In this document: positions 12,001-33,000 of the stretch, in pieces
How the letters are laid out: each line of letters starts with the position of its first letter
How positions within the stretch are numbered: position 1 is the first letter of the stretch
Assembly: GCF_044324875.1 (NCBI RefSeq)
Contig: NZ_CP172185.1
Direction: 5' to 3' (one strand)
From: Escherichia coli
Lineage (GTDB): Bacteria > Pseudomonadota > Gammaproteobacteria > Enterobacterales > Enterobacteriaceae
Length of the DNA: 64,000 bases
Made by a program: the position numbers

Positions 12001-15000
12001 TGAAGAATGATATTACTGGCTCCGGCGCTCTGGTGAAACAGGGGGCGGGTAATCTGATTATTAATCATGAGCTGACTTATACCGGTGATACCACGGTTGA
12101 GAATGGCGTTCTGATTGTCGGTGATGATTCAGTCACCCGTGCCGCTGGTGCGACGTTGTCAGGATCCAAAAACATTCATGTTCTTAATGGCGGCACACTG
12201 AGTGGGCTGGGGACCGTTTCGGGTCAGGTTAATAACCAGGGAACACTGGCATCACTGAATGCTCTCTCAGGTTATGAAACGGCAGAGGCGAGCAATTTTA
12301 CGGTTGGTTCACTGACCAATACCGGCGTCATTCGTCTGGCCGGTGGTAAGACAGGAAATACCCTGACCGTAAATGGCGATTACACCGGTGGCGGTACGTT
12401 AATTATCAATACCGTGCTGGGGGATGATACTTCTGCCACTGACAAACTGATTGTCACGGGTAACACCTCCGGTGATACCGGCGTGGTGGTGAATAATGTC
12501 CGGGGCCAGGGGGCTCAGACCGCTGACGGCATTGAGATTGTGCATGTCGGTGGGCATTCTGACGGTAACTTCAGACTGCAGAACCGTGCGGTGGCAGGGG
12601 CATGGGAATATTTCCTGCATAAAGGTAATGCGGGTGGTACTGACGGTAACTGGTATCTGCGTTCTGAATTGCCGCCAGAACCACAACCGCAGCCGCAGCC
12701 ACAACCGCAGCCACAGCCACACCCCACGCCGGATAAACCTGTACAGAAGGTCTATCGTCCGGAAGCGGGCTCTTATATTGCGAACATAGCGGCAGCCAAC
12801 ACGCTGTTCAACATCAGAATGCACGATCGTGAGGGGGAAACTTACTATACCGATGTGTTTACTGGTGAGAAGAAAGCAACAAGTATGTGGATGCGTCATA
12901 TCGGCGGTCATAATCGCTGGAAGGACAGCAGTTCACAGCTGAATACGCAAAGTAACCGTTATGTTGTGCAACTGGGTGGCAGCATTGCGCAATGGACTGA
13001 CGGTCAGGACCGTCTGCAACTGGGGATTATGGCCGGTTATGGAAATGAGAAGAGTTCCACGACATCCTCGCTTTCGGGATATAAATCTAAAGGTGCGATC
13101 AATGGATACAGCACCGGTTTATACGGAACGTGGCAGCAGAATGACGGTAATGACAACGGGGCTTATGTCGATACCTGGATCCAGTACGGATGGTTTAATA
13201 ATACCGTTAATGGTGAAAAACTGGCTGCGGAGTCCTGGAAATCCCGTGGATTTACCGGTTCAGTGGAAGCGGGTTATACCTTTAAAGCCGGCGAATTTAT
13301 CGGTAGCCAGGGTAGCCACTATGACTGGTATATTCAGCCGCAGTCCCAGATCACGTGGATGAATGTAAGAGCCAGTGAGCATACGGAGAAGAATGGCACG
13401 AAAGTTAAGCTCAGCGGAGACGGTAATATCCAGAGTCGTCTGGGCGTCAGAACTTACCTGAAAGGTAAGAGTGCGTCTGATGATAATAAGGCGCATCAGT
13501 TTGAGCCATTTGTGGAAGTTAACTGGATCCATAATACACGGAGCTGGGGTGTCAAAATGGATAATACGGCACTCAGTCAGGACGGAGCTACAAATATTGC
13601 TGAAGTCAAAACGGGTGTTCAGGGTAAATTGTCAGATAACCTGAGTGTCTGGGGCAATGTTGGTGTTCAGGCTGGCGATAAAGGGTACAGTGATGCCCAG
13701 GCAATGCTGGGTATTAAATATATATTCTAATCACACAGTGGCAGGAGGGGACCTCCTGCCACCTCAGGGTTGTCATAATGAGTTCTGTAATGAAATTTTC
13801 TGTTGTTAATGCAGTAGTGCTGCTGTTGCTGATTGTACTTACTGGTGTTTTTTATATGAAAAAGTCAAAAGAAATTGCAGTTGTTAATATCGATGCTATT
13901 TATAATCAGTCTACCGCCGGAGACATGGCCAAAAAGCATCTGAATGAGGTTAAGAGTATTCTTGAAAAAGGATATGAGGATGCGCAAAAAACATTCGCAG
14001 ATAACGCGAATAAAGAGGCGCTGCTTCTTGATGCCAGACAAAAACTGGAACGACAATATGTTATTGAGGAAAATAGCGCAAAAATGGTGTTATCCCGTGC
14101 GATAGATAATGCCATAGGCACATGGAGAAAAGACAATCCTAAAAATATTGCCGTATTGTCTTCAGGTGTTGTGCTTGCGCATAACGAGTCAGCTGATATC
14201 ACCAAAGAAGTCATGACTCTGGTTGAAAAAGAAAATCTGGTTTTTAATAAATTACCCAAAGTGGAAGTGCACAATAAGAATGAAGAGAAACCAGAACAAA
14301 GTAAGTAATCACTAGATTCTGACGATTTCCAGAAGGGAGATTCAGCAGGCCAGCATCTGTAATCATTCAGATTTGCTGGCTTGCTGCTAAATATGGTTGC
14401 TAAGAAAAATAGCAGGCCAGTAATTTATTCAGATTACTGAATATAATAATTTTTCAGGAACGGTTATGCTGAAGGTAGTATGTTTAATCGACACAATTAT
14501 TTGCTGAGTCTAATATGAGGTGACATTTTTATGATCACTGACCAGCAAGACTGACCCGTATTGATTAGCCTGATTATTGGCAACTTATTGGGGTAGTCAT
14601 TTTGACATCGAATGGGGGAGGTTTCCAGTTAAGTTCACGAATGCATGATGATTTGCGTTCACATATCGAAGTACTGGTTGACTATACTAAGGATTTTAAG
14701 ATAACTCACTGATTGTAAGTGGGTTATTGCGAGGGGGATGATAAATGGTGTCCCTGCAGAAATCATCTTAATTATTATTATGTTGATTTATATGTAGTTT
14801 ATTTTTGATTTTTTGTTTTTGTACCCGTTTTGTGCCCGTTTTATTCGATTCCCAATTTAAACTTCGATTCTAGAAAGGTGAGTAGGGGAGGTTATCATTT
14901 CATGTATCATTATTGTAGACACAGAATAATTACTCGCCTATCCTCACTGTAGACACACAATAGATACAGGAGTTAACCCACATGCGCACACAGGTTGTAT

Positions 15001-30000: not shown

Positions 30001-33000
30001 AATGAGACAATGGGAGATGTTTAACTCATTGAAAATAAATGGATAATGGTTTTTTCTGAGAGATTGCAAGAAGTTGCGATGGTGTCCCCTGCAGGAATCG
30101 AACCTGCAATTAGCCCTTAGGAGGGGCTCGTTATATCCATTTAACTAAGAGGACAATGCGGCATGAGTATACCCGCTAATGGACTGCGGGGTAAGTACGC
30201 TGCCGCTCGATTGCTTAAACCCTCGCCATTTATGCCGGGTTTTTATCATTTTTCTTAATGTTTTCCGCACGTTCTGCTTTTTGGCGTGCTTCTGCTTTGC
30301 GCTTGTTGCTCATGTCGTTACGGATCTGTGCATGACTCATTAACGCGAAGATAAAGGTGCCGCCGCAGATGTTCCCCGCTAAAGTAGGTAGTGCGAAGGG
30401 CCAGATGAAATCGCTCCAGTGCAGCGTACCGTTAAACACCAGATAGAGGATTTCAACAGAACCGACAACGATGTGAGTGGTGTCACCCAGGGCAATAAGC
30501 CAGGTCATCAATATAATCACCACAATCTTTGCCGCACCCGCTGCAGGAAACATCCAAACCATAGTGGCGATCAGCCAGCCGGAAATGATCGCGTTGGCAA
30601 ACATCTCGCTGGGGGTGTTCTTCATCACATCCATGCCGATTTTGACAAATGCATCGCGAGTTTCTTCATTGAAGATTGGCATATATTCAAATGCCCACGC
30701 CGCAATACCTGTCCCGAGAATATTACCCAGCAGCACGACGCCCCATAACCGCATAAGTAAGCCAACGTTGCTCATTGTCGGTTTTTGCATGACGGGTAGT
30801 ACCGCAGTCACGGTGTTTTCGGTAAATAATTGCTGGCGGGCCATAATGACGATAATAAAACCAAAGGTATAACCGAGATTCTCCAGCAAGAAGCTGCCCG
30901 GCACGCCTTCCAGTTCGACATGAAATATCCCTTTTGCCAGTAGCGAAGCGCCCATCGACAGACCCGCCGCAATGGCTGACCACAGTAGTGCCATTGCGTC
31001 GCGTTCCAGCTCTTTTTCACCATCCTGGCGGATATGCTCATGAATTGCCATCGCCCGGGAGGGGAGTCGGTCTTCATCTATTTCTATTTTTTTGCCGCGC
31101 TCTTTTTCTTCGCTCTCAACTTCAATTTCGTCGCTGTGTTGATCAATTTTGTCGTTGTCCATGGTCTCTTCTCTTGAATTAGCACGTATAGCTAAAGCGT
31201 AGCGGCTTTTTTGCTCGCAACTGGCGGGAGTTACTCTGAAAATGTAGAAAAGGCCGCGTTTGCCTTTTTCTGTTTCTATAGAATCAAGTAGCCTACAGGG
31301 CGGCGATTACCAGGCTATGATCAAATCAGCAAATCAGGGCGTCTGGACATCAGTTGACGTGCTGTTACAATCGCCCACACCTAAACAGGCGGATACGGTA
31401 TCGTTCCGTCATGGATGGCAAACTGCATAAGCCATAAAAAAACAGGGAGACATTTATGAAGCTTCGCCTGTCGGCGCTTGCTCTGGGAACTACGCTTCTG
31501 GTGGGGTGTGCGAGTTCCGGTACAGATCAGCAAGGGCGTTCTGACCCGTTAGAAGGGTTCAACCGCACCATGTACAACTTCAACTTCAATGTATTAGACC
31601 CGTATATTGTTCGACCGGTCGCTGTCGCCTGGCGTGATTATGTTCCGCAACCGGCGCGTAACGGTTTGAGCAACTTTACTGGCAACCTTGAAGAACCTGC
31701 GGTGATGGTTAACTACTTCTTGCAGGGCGACCCTTATCAGGGGATGGTCCACTTTACCCGCTTTTTCCTGAACACCATTTTGGGGATGGGCGGCTTTATT
31801 GATGTTGCAGGGATGGCGAACCCGAAACTGCAACGGACTGAACCTCACCGCTTCGGTAGTACGCTTGGTCATTATGGTGTGGGTTATGGGCCATACGTTC
31901 AGTTACCGTTCTACGGTAGCTTCACGCTGCGTGATGACGGTGGTGATATGGCGGATGGTCTTTACCCGGTTCTTTCCTGGCTGACCTGGCCGATGTCTGT
32001 GGGTAAATGGACGCTTGAAGGGATCGAAACCCGCGCACAGCTGCTGGATTCCGATGGTCTGCTGCGTCAGTCGTCCGATCCTTATATTATGGTGCGCGAA
32101 GCGTACTTCCAGCGTCATGATTTCATCGCTAATGGCGGCGAACTCAAACCGCAGGAAAATCCGAACGCGCAAGCGATTCAGGATGATTTAAAAGATATCG
32201 ATTCTGAATAAGAAACAAATAAAAAAGGTGAGTCACAAAACTCACCTTTTTTGTTGTTATCCCTCAATTACCCCAAGTAAAAGAAGATAAACCGACAATG
32301 ACCTGGACATAATTATGTAAAAATACTGATGTTCGTCACTGACTATTTCCGATATTCAGGCGTTGAAAAATCAAAAAAACTGGACAATTTTAATTATCAT
32401 CAAAATTAACACCCAATGCAGATAGTTGATTAATTTCATTTTGATATTTAGCCTGGCGATTTTGAAGCCTTTTTTCAACTTTATCTTCGATTTCCTTAAA
32501 GTGGTCATATTTATTTTGAGAACGGTCAACTTCGTTATCGACTAAAGTAGAAATTATTTCTTTTACATTATCGCGTCTAAATTTTGCATCGTCCACTTGA
32601 AAATTATATCTTATTGCTCGACCTAAACGTTTAAAAACTTCGTTTGGCTCTCTCAGTCTTTCCCCGTTGAGCTCGTTTACAACCTGATGATCGGAACCTG
32701 TTGCAAATGATTCTGCCATGATAGCTTTACTGCTTTCAAACCACGCTGAAGCATTCCTGGCTTTTTCACTACAATATTGGGTGAGACTATCACCATTAAT
32801 ACGAATTCCTCTTTGAATGTGGTAGTCGTCCTGATCATAGTAACCGAGAGATAAGTAATCATTTCCGTTTTTATTTTTAATTACAATAGCGAGAGAATCG
32901 CCTTTTTTATCTTTACCGTACCAGGTAAATAAGTCCGTTGGTTCGCTTTTCCCATTCTCATCAAATTCCGTTATCGTATGTCTGAGTTTTTGTGATATCT

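What the first reader, a model, noticed from the sequence alone, without database searches (positions are those of the whole stretch)
14746..30154. ~15.4 kb P4-like satellite island at tRNA-Arg (argW) with imperfect att repeats
A P4-type integrase abuts the tRNA 3' end, followed by AlpA, small ORFs, a primase-helicase and an Ogr/Delta-like gene. A 19-bp imperfect copy of the tRNA 3' end at 14746-14764 marks the probable distal boundary. K-12 carries a different prophage (CPS-53) at this site, so this is strain-specific accessory DNA.
Basis: partly seen in the sequence, partly recalled or inferred. Interest (0 to 1): 0.55.

Follow-up and report, generated by a model that had tools for sequence, protein, structure and literature searches.

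The report
P4-family satellite carrying its own capsid gene
The island at the argW tRNA gene is a real, precisely bounded phage-satellite of the P4 family, now interrupted by an insertion sequence, and it is unusual because it carries its own P2-type capsid gene, a very distant Sid scaffold gene and a copy of a P2-like phage's integrase.

Summary
tRNA-Arg(CCU) lies at 30080-30154 (-). A 19-nt copy of its 3' end (one substitution, one deletion) lies at 14746-14764. Related islands share homology from exactly 14745, and they keep the same imperfections. The reconstructed empty site occurs intact in 938 of 5426 complete E. coli genomes.

The island spans 14745-30079, 15,335 bp. That is about 12.7 kb of element plus a 2,639-bp IS21-family insertion, which sits between the promoter and the ribosome-binding site of the Ogr/Delta-like gene.

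Shared with P4:
- integrase, 53% identical
- Vis/AlpA-like regulator
- the P4-type CI (C4) and isrK-like RNA pair
- Ogr/Delta-like zinc finger
- a 236-aa protein that is a remote Sid homologue (hhalign 82%; PDB fold searches rank Sid first or second)

Absent: Psu, epsilon, a close alpha homologue and any recognisable cos site.

Extra features:
- a divergent P2-family capsid gene (34% identical to gpN, dN/dS 0.06-0.24)
- a second integrase, 81% identical to P88-like Peduoviridae integrases
- MazEF

The same gene order occurs in Klebsiella and Salmonella. I read it as a capsid-encoding variant of the P4 satellite family. This copy is probably crippled by the IS. Mobilisation by a helper phage is inferred, not shown.

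The parts
14745..14764 (.). Distal att repeat: imperfect copy of the argW 3' end (ATGGTGTCCC-TGCAGAAATC). The shared core with the tRNA end is (G)ATGGTGTCCC.
14821..14842 (+). Tandem GTRCCCGTTTT repeats, putative arm-type integrase binding sites on the distal arm (inferred by analogy with P4 attP arm repeats).
14982..15230 (+). MazE/AbrB-type antitoxin gene.
15230..15574 (+). MazF/PemK-type endoribonuclease toxin gene.
15578..15595 (-). Terminator-like hairpin just downstream of the capsid gene.
15618..16889 (-). Island-type P2-family major capsid protein, 423 aa. It has an N-terminal extension of about 85 aa and a shortened 'sir loop'. Its start overlaps the stop of the Sid-like gene.
16889..17599 (-). 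Sid-like protein, 236 aa, all-helical.
17600..17763 (.). Divergent intergenic region with several GCGTAATAC / GTATTACG motifs; putative regulatory sites (inferred).
17764..17997 (+). Conserved 77-aa ORF on the opposite strand. No family match; the sequence looks like a ribbon-helix-helix regulator (inference).
18048..18230 (-). Ogr/Delta-like zinc-finger gene, 60 aa.
18246..20884 (-). IS21-family insertion sequence (istA, istB). TCTTA target duplication at 18241-18245 and 20885-20889. Inserted between the -10-like hexamer and the ribosome-binding site of the Delta-like gene.
21088..21360 (-). Conserved 90-aa hypothetical ORF.
21485..21804 (.). Origin-like region: 36-nt inverted repeats (94% complementary) flank 248 nt that hold many GGTTACA heptamers in both orientations and an AT-rich centre.
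22053..23057 (-). Second tyrosine recombinase, 334 aa, 81% identical to integrases of P88-like Peduoviridae. It lies directly downstream of the primase gene, 2 nt after its stop.
23060..25729 (-). Primase-helicase, 889 aa (zinc ribbon, Toprim, P-loop).
25778..26733 (-). Four small ORFs of the early operon, with no family match.
26726..27247 (-). ORF annotated in RefSeq relatives as Icd-like. Only its C-terminal ~55 aa has protein homology; the upstream part overlaps the two RNA genes.
26951..27038 (-). C4-family antisense RNA (P4 CI-type immunity RNA), 73 bits.
27064..27145 (-). isrK-family RNA upstream of the C4-like RNA, as in P4. A sub-threshold c4 target-like match lies at 27106-27158.
27807..28028 (-). 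AlpA/Vis-like helix-turn-helix regulator or excisionase, 73 aa.
28639..29901 (-). P4-type integrase, 420 aa.
29946..29968 (+). Tandem ATACCCRYTTT repeats, putative arm-type integrase sites on the integrase-proximal arm (inferred).
30080..30154 (-). tRNA-Arg(CCU), argW. Its 3' end is the integration site.

Best explanation
This is an integrated phage satellite of the P4 family. A P4-type integrase inserted it at the extreme 3' end of argW, recombining within the shared core (G)ATGGTGTCCC.

Shown here: the boundaries, the gene content, and the conservation of this architecture in E. coli (two integration modules), Klebsiella and Salmonella.

Inferred by analogy with P4:
- A CI-type antisense RNA keeps the early operon silent. 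That operon holds the small ORFs, the primase-helicase and the second integrase.
- Infection by, or activation of, a P2-like (Peduoviridae) helper starts the cycle. The island then excises using Int plus the Vis/AlpA-like protein.
- It replicates from the GGTTACA-iteron origin.
- The Ogr/Delta-like activator turns on the late genes.

The difference from P4 is in the late genes. They encode a distant Sid-type external scaffold and the satellite's own gpN-type capsid protein, which occupies the terminal late-gene position that psu has in P4. My reading is that the two proteins together build or nucleate small shells sized for a ~12.7-kb genome. Portal, protease/scaffold, terminase and tails would come from the helper. 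The capsid homologue could work like the Ccm capsid homologue of SaPIbov5.

The second integrase is a copy of a local P2-like phage's integrase and probably acts on the helper prophage.

In this window the IS21-family element separates the Delta-like gene from its promoter and raises the size to 15.3 kb, so this copy is probably not mobilisable.
For: Boundaries
- The distal repeat is exact and conserved.
- The empty site exists in 938 genomes.

P4 kinship
- Int is 53% identical, Vis-like 36%, Delta 39% over the zinc finger.
- The C4 plus isrK RNA pair is in the same order as in P4.

Capsid gene
- Pfam Phage_cap_P2, E 1.4e-73.
- 34% identical to gpN over gpN residues 3-340.
- No phage record reaches 60% identity.
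- It belongs to a separate clade scoring 265-390 bits, against 204 or less for phage capsids.
- dN/dS is 0.06-0.24, similar to the primase.
- It is intact in 55 of the 56 E. coli genomes that carry it.
- The Sid-contact loop is shortened and changed at 4 of the 5 sir positions (sir loop defined in PMC7552001).

Synteny
- Klebsiella and Salmonella relatives have the same order.
- In E. coli the same core sits at hpt|gcd with a different integrase.
- One divergent lineage also pairs a Sid-like gene with an MCP gene.

Size
- About 12.7 kb without the IS, against P4's 11.6 kb.

Helper clue
- int2 is 81% identical to Xuanwuvirus integrases. The Klebsiella int2 is 94.5% identical to a Klebsiella Peduoviridae integrase. 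The two int2 proteins are only 46% identical to each other.

IS damage.
Against: - No cos or pac site was found. There is no similarity to the P2 or P4 cos, and no match of any non-coding island DNA to 50,697 phage records.
- No terminase gene is present.
- No helper has been identified experimentally, and none lies in the window.
- The only IMG/VR hit with the island-type capsid is a single 12-kb contig that corresponds to the island itself. All other hits are 34-39% identical to it, in the range seen for P2-family phage capsids.
- Psu and epsilon are absent. The primase shares only a Walker-motif patch with P4 alpha.
- The canonical Ogr/Delta site TGT-N12-ACA is absent upstream of the late genes.
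- Sid homology is remote (12-19% identity).
- One relative has a Sid-like gene followed directly by mazE with no capsid gene, so the capsid gene is not obligatory for the lineage.
- The capsid structure prediction was poor.
Confidence: 0.7

Rival explanations
1. It is a non-transmissible defence island. The capsid homologue and the Sid-like protein act as decoys that poison capsid assembly of incoming P2-like phages. MazEF and the phage-type integrase add further interference. The element is kept for host protection rather than for its own spread.
For: - No cos, pac or terminase gene was found.
- MazEF lies at the end of the island, and the slot after the primase is variable: int2, HicAB or DUF4238 in relatives.
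- Satellites commonly interfere with their helpers, and a capsid homologue that suppresses the helper is known in SaPIbov5 (PMC8569155).
Against: - The element keeps a complete mobility and replication set under purifying selection: integrase, Vis-like gene, immunity RNAs, primase-helicase and an iteron origin.
- It occurs at two chromosomal sites with swapped integrase modules, and in three genera.
- Its size stays constant at about 12.7 kb.
- PADLOC finds no defence-system match apart from Toprim similarity.
- Interference and self-transfer are not mutually exclusive.
Confidence: 0.15
2. It is a decayed composite. An ordinary P4-like cryptic island has fused with leftovers of a P2-like prophage (capsid gene and integrase), and the P2-derived genes no longer contribute anything.
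For: - Both odd genes have their closest relatives in Peduoviridae.
- The island in the window has taken an IS hit.
- argW is a busy integration site: CPS-53 in K-12 and the UpaE block here.
Against: - The capsid gene is only 34% identical to any phage gpN and forms its own clade.
- It is under strong purifying selection.
- Its start overlaps the stop of the Sid-like gene.
- It holds the same position in E. coli, Klebsiella and Salmonella.
- No other P2 gene (Q, P, O, M, L or tail genes) is present.
Confidence: 0.08
3. It is a PICI or a capsid-forming PICI rather than a P4 relative.
For: It has the integrase, AlpA-like and primase order typical of Gram-negative PICIs, and it has a capsid gene.
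Against: - No small or large terminase, portal, protease or head-tail connector gene is present. Those genes define PICI and cfPICI (PMC10085698).
- The integrase, immunity RNAs, Delta and Sid are P4-type.
- The capsid is of P2 type.
Confidence: 0.03

Closest known systems
Satellite phage P4 and the P4-like satellites of Enterobacterales
   Same: - A P4-type integrase at a tRNA 3' end, with an imperfect attP copy of the tRNA end.
- A Vis/AlpA-like regulator.
- A CI (C4-family) immunity RNA preceded by an isrK-like RNA.
- A fused primase-helicase with an iteron origin.
- An Ogr/Delta-type activator and a Sid-fold protein of the same length.
- A genome of about 12 kb.
   Different: - No Psu and no epsilon.
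- The primase is not a close alpha homologue.
- No P2/P4-type cos was detected.
- Delta is a single 60-aa finger, not the duplicated 166-aa form.
- Late-gene order is delta, sid-like, capsid, instead of sid, delta, psu.
- It encodes its own gpN-type capsid protein, a helper-type integrase and MazEF.
SaPIbov5 Ccm (a satellite-encoded homologue of the helper capsid protein)
   Same: A satellite carries a diverged homologue of its helper family's major capsid protein. In SaPIbov5 that protein occupies the pentamers and forces small T=4 shells (PMC8569155). This is the nearest precedent for what the island capsid gene may do.
   Different: - A different host (Staphylococcus), helper family and capsid lineage.
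- Here the homologue is paired with a Sid-type external scaffold.
- Incorporation into shells is untested.
Capsid-forming PICIs (for example EcCIEDL933)
   Same: Satellites of Enterobacteria that make their own capsids and take only the remaining parts from the helper (PMC10085698).
   Different: cfPICIs carry a full head and packaging module (capsid, protease, portal, adaptors, terS, terL). This island has one structural gene plus a scaffold gene, and its other modules are P4-type.
CPS-53 (KpLE1) of E. coli K-12
   Same: The same integration site at the argW 3' end, with a partial tRNA copy (pawZ) next to dsdC.
   Different: An unrelated cryptic prophage with a different integrase (IntS), O-antigen modification genes and TorI. 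It shares no module with this island.

Membership tests
P4-like satellites | P4-type tyrosine integrase next to the att site | tested here: met
   53% identity to P4 Int over 417 aa, E 4e-135. The gene abuts the argW 3' end.
P4-like satellites | AlpA/Vis-type regulator | tested here: met
   PHROG 'excisionase and transcriptional regulator', E 3e-9. 36% identity to P4 orf88, E 2e-8.
P4-like satellites | Delta (Ogr-type zinc-finger late activator) | tested here: met
   The 60-aa ORF carries CxxC...CxxxxC. It matches both halves of P4 Delta, E 4e-4 and 9e-3. RefSeq relatives annotate it as ogr/Delta-like.
P4-like satellites | Sid (external size-determining scaffold) | tested here: met
P4-like satellites | Psu (decoration and polarity-suppression protein) | tested here: not met
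   No tblastn hit. The only Sid/Psu-fold protein aligns with Sid, not Psu. The terminal late-gene position that psu has in P4 is occupied by the capsid gene.
P4-like satellites | Epsilon/Ash (helper derepression) | tested here: inconclusive
   No hit to P4 epsilon and no Pfam match for the Icd-like ORF. In the Klebsiella relative a precomputed Phage_ASH hit falls on an ORF that overlaps the RNA genes.
P4-like satellites | Alpha primase-helicase | tested here: inconclusive
   The domain logic is the same: zinc ribbon, Toprim and P-loop. Similarity to P4 alpha is limited to a 27-aa patch, E 1e-3.
P4-like satellites | CI-type RNA immunity region | tested here: met
   RF01695 C4 at 73 bits and RF01394 isrK at 50.6 bits, both above gathering score. 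The same pair, in the same order, is found in P4 itself and in relatives.
P4-like satellites | cos site homologous to the helper's | tested here: not met
   No similarity to the P4 or P2-like cos regions. No match of non-coding island DNA to the phage collection. A diverged cos cannot be excluded.
P4-like satellites | Helper-dependent excision, replication and packaging | not testable with these tools
   This needs infection or induction experiments.
Capsid-forming PICI | Full head and packaging module (capsid, protease, portal, adaptors, terS, terL) | tested here: not met
   Only a capsid gene is present. No other ORF matches head or packaging families. Definition from PMC10085698.
PICI (Gram-negative) | Small terminase or packaging-redirection gene | tested here: not met
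   No terminase-family match among the island ORFs.
Defective P2-like prophage | Other P2 structural or lysis genes (Q, P, O, M, L, tail) near the capsid gene | tested here: not met
   None is present. The protein upstream of the capsid gene is not gpO-like.
Ccm-type capsid-homologue redirection (SaPIbov5) | Satellite-encoded diverged homologue of the helper family's capsid protein | tested here: met
   34% identity to gpN, a separate clade and purifying selection.
Ccm-type capsid-homologue redirection (SaPIbov5) | The homologue is incorporated into small shells | not testable with these tools
   This needs particle proteomics or cryo-EM.

The most novel reading that the evidence does not exclude
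A lineage of P4-family satellites in Enterobacteriaceae has exchanged Psu for its own gpN-type capsid protein. That protein's Sid-contact loop has co-evolved with a private, highly diverged Sid. The satellite therefore builds its own small shell and cannot be escaped by sir-type mutations in the helper capsid gene. The same lineage repeatedly acquires a copy of its local P2-like helper's integrase, placed just after its primase gene. The likely purpose is to excise, or otherwise manipulate, P2-like helper prophages, which on my own recollection are otherwise non-inducible.
Probability: 0.3. Interest if true: 0.8.

Novelty: new variant of a known kind. Interest (0 to 1): 0.6.

Why it matters
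P4 is the textbook satellite that steals a helper's capsid protein and reshapes it with Sid. [quoted passage not shown]

This island, with its relatives in Klebsiella and Salmonella, shows a Sid-fold protein below the reach of ordinary sequence search. It is permanently paired with a satellite-owned capsid gene. That would be an intermediate between capsid-stealing satellites such as P4 and capsid-forming satellites such as cfPICIs.

Profile-based satellite finders that require Sid and Psu probably miss or under-classify this family.

The helper-type integrase carried by the satellite, which differs between the E. coli and Klebsiella relatives examined and in each matches local Peduoviridae, suggests an undescribed way for a satellite to act on its helper prophage. 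It also names candidate helpers (P88-like phages) for experiments.

For this particular genome the practical message is more modest. The island is accessory DNA with exact boundaries, and an IS has probably disabled it.

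Tried and rejected
1. N-terminal extension of the capsid protein derived from the C-terminal scaffolding domain of gpO. A tblastn hit ran through the gpO-gpN junction of one phage. BLASTP and profile comparison show no similarity. It is not Sid-like either. Rejected.

2. The small ORFs that follow Sid-like genes in two divergent relatives are free-standing versions of that extension. No similarity was found, and one of them is a MazE. Rejected.

3. The 320-bp segment flanked by 36-nt inverted repeats next to the second recombinase is an invertible switch. All four related loci examined have it in the same orientation. Not supported; an iteron origin is the simpler reading.

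4. A P2/P4 cos site. No match was found by short-word blastn, nor by searching all non-coding island DNA against the phage collection.

5. Canonical Ogr/Delta sites (TGT-N12-ACA). There are only two in the island, both inside genes and fewer than chance expectation.

6. Known defence systems. PADLOC finds nothing apart from Toprim similarity.

7. Virome evidence of packaging. IMG/VR holds one 12-kb contig with the island-type capsid, corresponding to the island itself. All other hits are 34-39% identical, in the range seen for P2-family phage capsids.

8. Structure of the capsid protein. The AlphaFold model was poor (mean pLDDT 48). Only the N-terminal helical hairpin was confident, so no fold search was run on it.

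9. Literature. None found a description of a P4-like satellite with a P2-family capsid gene. That is absence from the held library only.

Full report
**Observation**

The window covers the E. coli dsdX-dsdC ... argW-yfdC-mlaA region. ARAGORN and Rfam find one tRNA, tRNA-Arg(CCU), at 30080-30154 on the minus strand. Its 3' end faces a 420-aa integrase gene at 28639-29901.

On the plus strand the tRNA end reads TGGTGTCCCCTGCAGGAATC. The sequence at 14746-14764 reads TGGTGTCCCTGCAGAAATC, which is the same 20-mer with one C missing and one G>A change. It is the only other match in the window within edit distance 2. No match appeared in 300 shuffles.

**Boundaries**

Megablast against 5,426 complete E. 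coli genomes finds the island in a minority of them. The closest copy (chicken isolate ECCNB12-2, 99.2% identical) lacks about 2.6 kb of it.

In strain HNSQ2209 the island lies directly between dsdC and argW. In the window and in ECCNB12-2, the same left end abuts an unrelated block that carries the UpaE autotransporter. The three left junctions share no homology to the left of window position 14745. From there on they are collinear, and the repeat has the same deletion and substitution in all three.

K-12 has CPS-53 at the same point. A perfect 15-nt tRNA copy (pawZ) follows the same dsdC-side flank.

I joined that flank to the tRNA 3' end to make a 213-nt 'empty site' query. It is found as a single uninterrupted piece; the top hits are 100% identical, and 938 of 5,426 genomes cover at least 80% of it.

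The island therefore spans 14745-30079, 15,335 bp. The block common to both junctions is (G)ATGGTGTCCC, so strand exchange should lie there. The downstream CCCTGCAGAAATC would then be the element's own imperfect copy of the tRNA end (inference). Tandem 11-12-nt repeats on each arm (14821-14842 and 29946-29968) resemble the arm-type repeats annotated in P4 attP.

**The insertion sequence**

Comparison with ECCNB12-2 shows a 2,639-bp element at 18246-20884, flanked by a TCTTA duplication.

- It encodes IS21-family IstA and IstB.
- Identical copies occur elsewhere in E. coli chromosomes and plasmids.
- It sits 15 nt upstream of the Ogr/Delta-like start codon, between a GATATAAT -10-like hexamer and the ribosome-binding site.

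Without the IS the element is about 12.7 kb. Copies elsewhere have the same size. P4 is 11.6 kb.

**What links it to P4**

I compared all P4 proteins with the island.

| P4 protein | Result in the island |
|---|---|
| Int | 53% identical over its full length |
| orf88/Vis | 36% identical to the AlpA-like gene at 27807-28028 |
| Delta | both zinc-finger halves match the 60-aa ORF at 18048-18230 |
| alpha | only a 27-aa Walker-motif patch in the primase-helicase |
| Sid, Psu, epsilon, gop/beta/cII | no hit |

Rfam adds a decisive point. A C4-family antisense RNA lies at 26951-27038 (73 bits) and an isrK-family RNA at 27064-27145 (50.6 bits); both exceed their gathering scores. The same two families, in the same order, are found in P4 itself at the position of its CI immunity RNA. 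They are also found in the E. coli and Klebsiella relatives, and the Salmonella relative has the C4 RNA only.

The 173-aa 'Icd-like' ORF annotated in RefSeq relatives overlaps these RNAs. It has protein homology only in its last ~55 residues.

**The 236-aa protein is a remote Sid**

The 236-aa protein (16889-17599) has no Pfam, PHROG, NCBIfam or PDB sequence match. An exhaustive HMMER search of 1.84 billion representatives found 19 relatives. The full-length ones are about 220-276 aa.

Three lines of evidence tie this family to Sid:

- A profile of the family aligns with P4 Sid at 67% probability and with a Sid family profile at 82% probability, E 1e-5, over matching positions 35-136 and 39-140. 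It does not align with Psu or gpO.
- The AlphaFold model is confident (mean pLDDT 93). Foldseek ranks the Sid chain of the P4 procapsid (7jw1_E) first among 350,542 PDB chains, with Psu third.

Together with the equal length and the position next to the Delta-like gene, I accept it as a Sid homologue.

**The capsid gene**

The start of the next gene (15618-16889, 423 aa) overlaps the Sid-like stop codon. A terminator-like hairpin follows it.

- It is a P2-family major capsid protein: Pfam E 1.4e-73 and PDB 7jw1_A gpN E 7e-56.
- It is only 34% identical to gpN, over gpN residues 3-340.
- No phage record reaches 60% identity.
- In a search of 5.8 billion proteins it belongs to a distinct clade from E. 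coli, Salmonella, Klebsiella, Erwinia and Pectobacterium. That clade is 41-52% identical and scores 265-390 bits. Genuine phage capsids score 204 bits or less.
- Most clade members share an N-terminal extension with a conserved helix motif followed by a variable linker. It is predicted as a helical hairpin.
- Among E. coli copies dN/dS is 0.06-0.24, close to the primase at 0.10-0.17. For the Sid-like gene dN/dS is 0.03-0.38 between diverged copies; one near-identical pair gives 1.5 on very few changes.
- The capsid plus Sid-like pair is present in 56 of 5,426 genomes and full-length in 55.
- The loop that Sid contacts in gpN is the 'sir loop', residues 183-224 (PMC7552001). In the island protein it is 7 residues shorter and differs at 4 of the 5 sir positions. 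Identity is 24% in the loop against 37% elsewhere.

**A conserved family**

The same core, from mazEF through the RNA region, occurs in E. coli between hpt and gcd with an unrelated integrase module.

Klebsiella and Salmonella relatives keep this order: regulator, small ORFs, ~888-aa primase, variable slot, Ogr/Delta, a 76-77-aa ORF on the opposite strand (called in three of the four relative loci), a ~240-aa protein, capsid.

A still more distant lineage also pairs a Sid-like gene with a P2-family capsid gene and has a P4-type integrase nearby. One short contig shows a Sid-like gene followed directly by mazE with no capsid gene. The capsid gene is therefore frequent in the lineage but not universal.

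**The second integrase**

A 334-aa tyrosine recombinase gene (22053-23057) follows the primase gene directly. It is 81% identical to the integrases of P88-like Peduoviridae: Xuanwuvirus P884B11, Escherichia phages Chuche and PhiR44_2, and Citrobacter phage Shae_phiSM.

The Klebsiella relative has a recombinase in the same slot that is 94.5% identical to the integrase of a Klebsiella Peduoviridae phage. The two satellite recombinases are only 46% identical to each other. The Salmonella relative has HicAB in that slot instead.

So the E. coli and Klebsiella satellites each carry a copy of a local P2-like phage's integrase. This points to Peduoviridae, and for E. coli to P88-like phages, as helpers. 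It also suggests that the satellite acts on helper integration or excision. P2 prophages are known to be poorly inducible because Int is limiting; I state that from my own knowledge and did not test it here.

**Other parts**

- The 21485-21804 segment has 36-nt inverted repeats around many GGTTACA heptamers and an AT-rich centre. I read it as the origin. It has the same orientation in the four relatives examined.
- MazE and MazF genes lie at the distal end, inside the boundary.

**Mechanism**

The shown and inferred steps are set out in the best explanation. In short, this is a P4-type lysogenic satellite held silent by a CI-type RNA and activated by a P2-like helper. Its late genes supply a private Sid plus capsid pair, where P4 has Sid plus Psu. 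The capsid homologue may form the whole small shell, or it may take particular positions as Ccm does in SaPIbov5 (PMC8569155).

The main gaps are:

- no recognisable cos;
- no canonical Delta sites;
- no particle evidence.

In this window the IS both uncouples the Delta-like gene from its promoter and adds 2.6 kb. This copy is therefore probably inactive.

**Novelty**

Full-text searches found no description of a P4-like satellite with a P2-family capsid gene or a helper-type integrase. The published definition of P4-like satellites uses integrase, Psu, Delta, Sid, AlpA, Ash/epsilon and alpha (PMC10085698; PMC8628076). Here Psu is absent, and Sid is invisible to ordinary sequence search.

I rate the island a new variant of a known kind.

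Noticed in passing
window 22053-23057; L008 4000-4989: The island's second recombinase is 81% identical to P88-like (Xuanwuvirus) phage integrases. The Klebsiella relative's is 94.5% identical to a Klebsiella Peduoviridae integrase. The two are only 46% identical to each other, so the same slot after the primase gene holds a copy of a local P2-like phage's integrase in each host.
   Followed up: partly
window 2511-14744: About 12.2 kb of accessory DNA lies between dsdC and the island. It includes the 2,637-aa phase-variable autotransporter UpaE (5817-13730) and an OmpH-like 176-aa ORF (13778-14308). GC drops to 0.38-0.40 near its right end. It is absent from strain HNSQ2209, where the island abuts dsdC directly. 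No second tRNA-end repeat marks its left edge.
   Followed up: partly
window 26726-27247: RefSeq relatives annotate a 173-aa 'host cell division inhibitor Icd-like protein' here. Its upstream two-thirds overlaps the C4-type and isrK-type RNA genes, and only the last ~55 residues have protein homology. The long ORF is probably over-called.
   Followed up: partly
window 21485-21804: 36-nt inverted repeats (94% complementary) bracket a 248-nt stretch full of GGTTACA heptamers, right next to a recombinase gene. I read it as an origin. The orientation is identical in four relatives, so there is no sign of inversion.
   Followed up: yes
window 17600-17763, also 20963-20973 and 21320-21330: A GCGTAATAC / GTATTACG motif recurs upstream of the Sid-like gene and upstream of the Delta-like gene. 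It may be the binding site of a regulator, either the 77-aa ORF or Delta. Not tested.
   Followed up: no
L095 1291-2806; L094 956-3028: A relative with two adjacent Ogr/Delta ORFs has a Sid-like gene followed directly by mazE, with no capsid gene. Another has a Sid-like gene, an unrelated 78-aa ORF and a normal-length P2-family capsid gene. The capsid gene and its N-terminal extension have therefore been gained or lost within the lineage.
   Followed up: partly
window 18246-20884: The IS21-family element (RefSeq names its IstB as ISSso4 family) has 100% identical copies on other E. coli chromosomes and plasmids, so it is a recently active IS.
   Followed up: yes
window 32390-33637: A 415-aa ORF sits in a low-GC patch (0.35-0.38) between mlaA and fadL, at the position where K-12 has yfdF. 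RefSeq relatives annotate it as a hypothetical protein.
   Followed up: no
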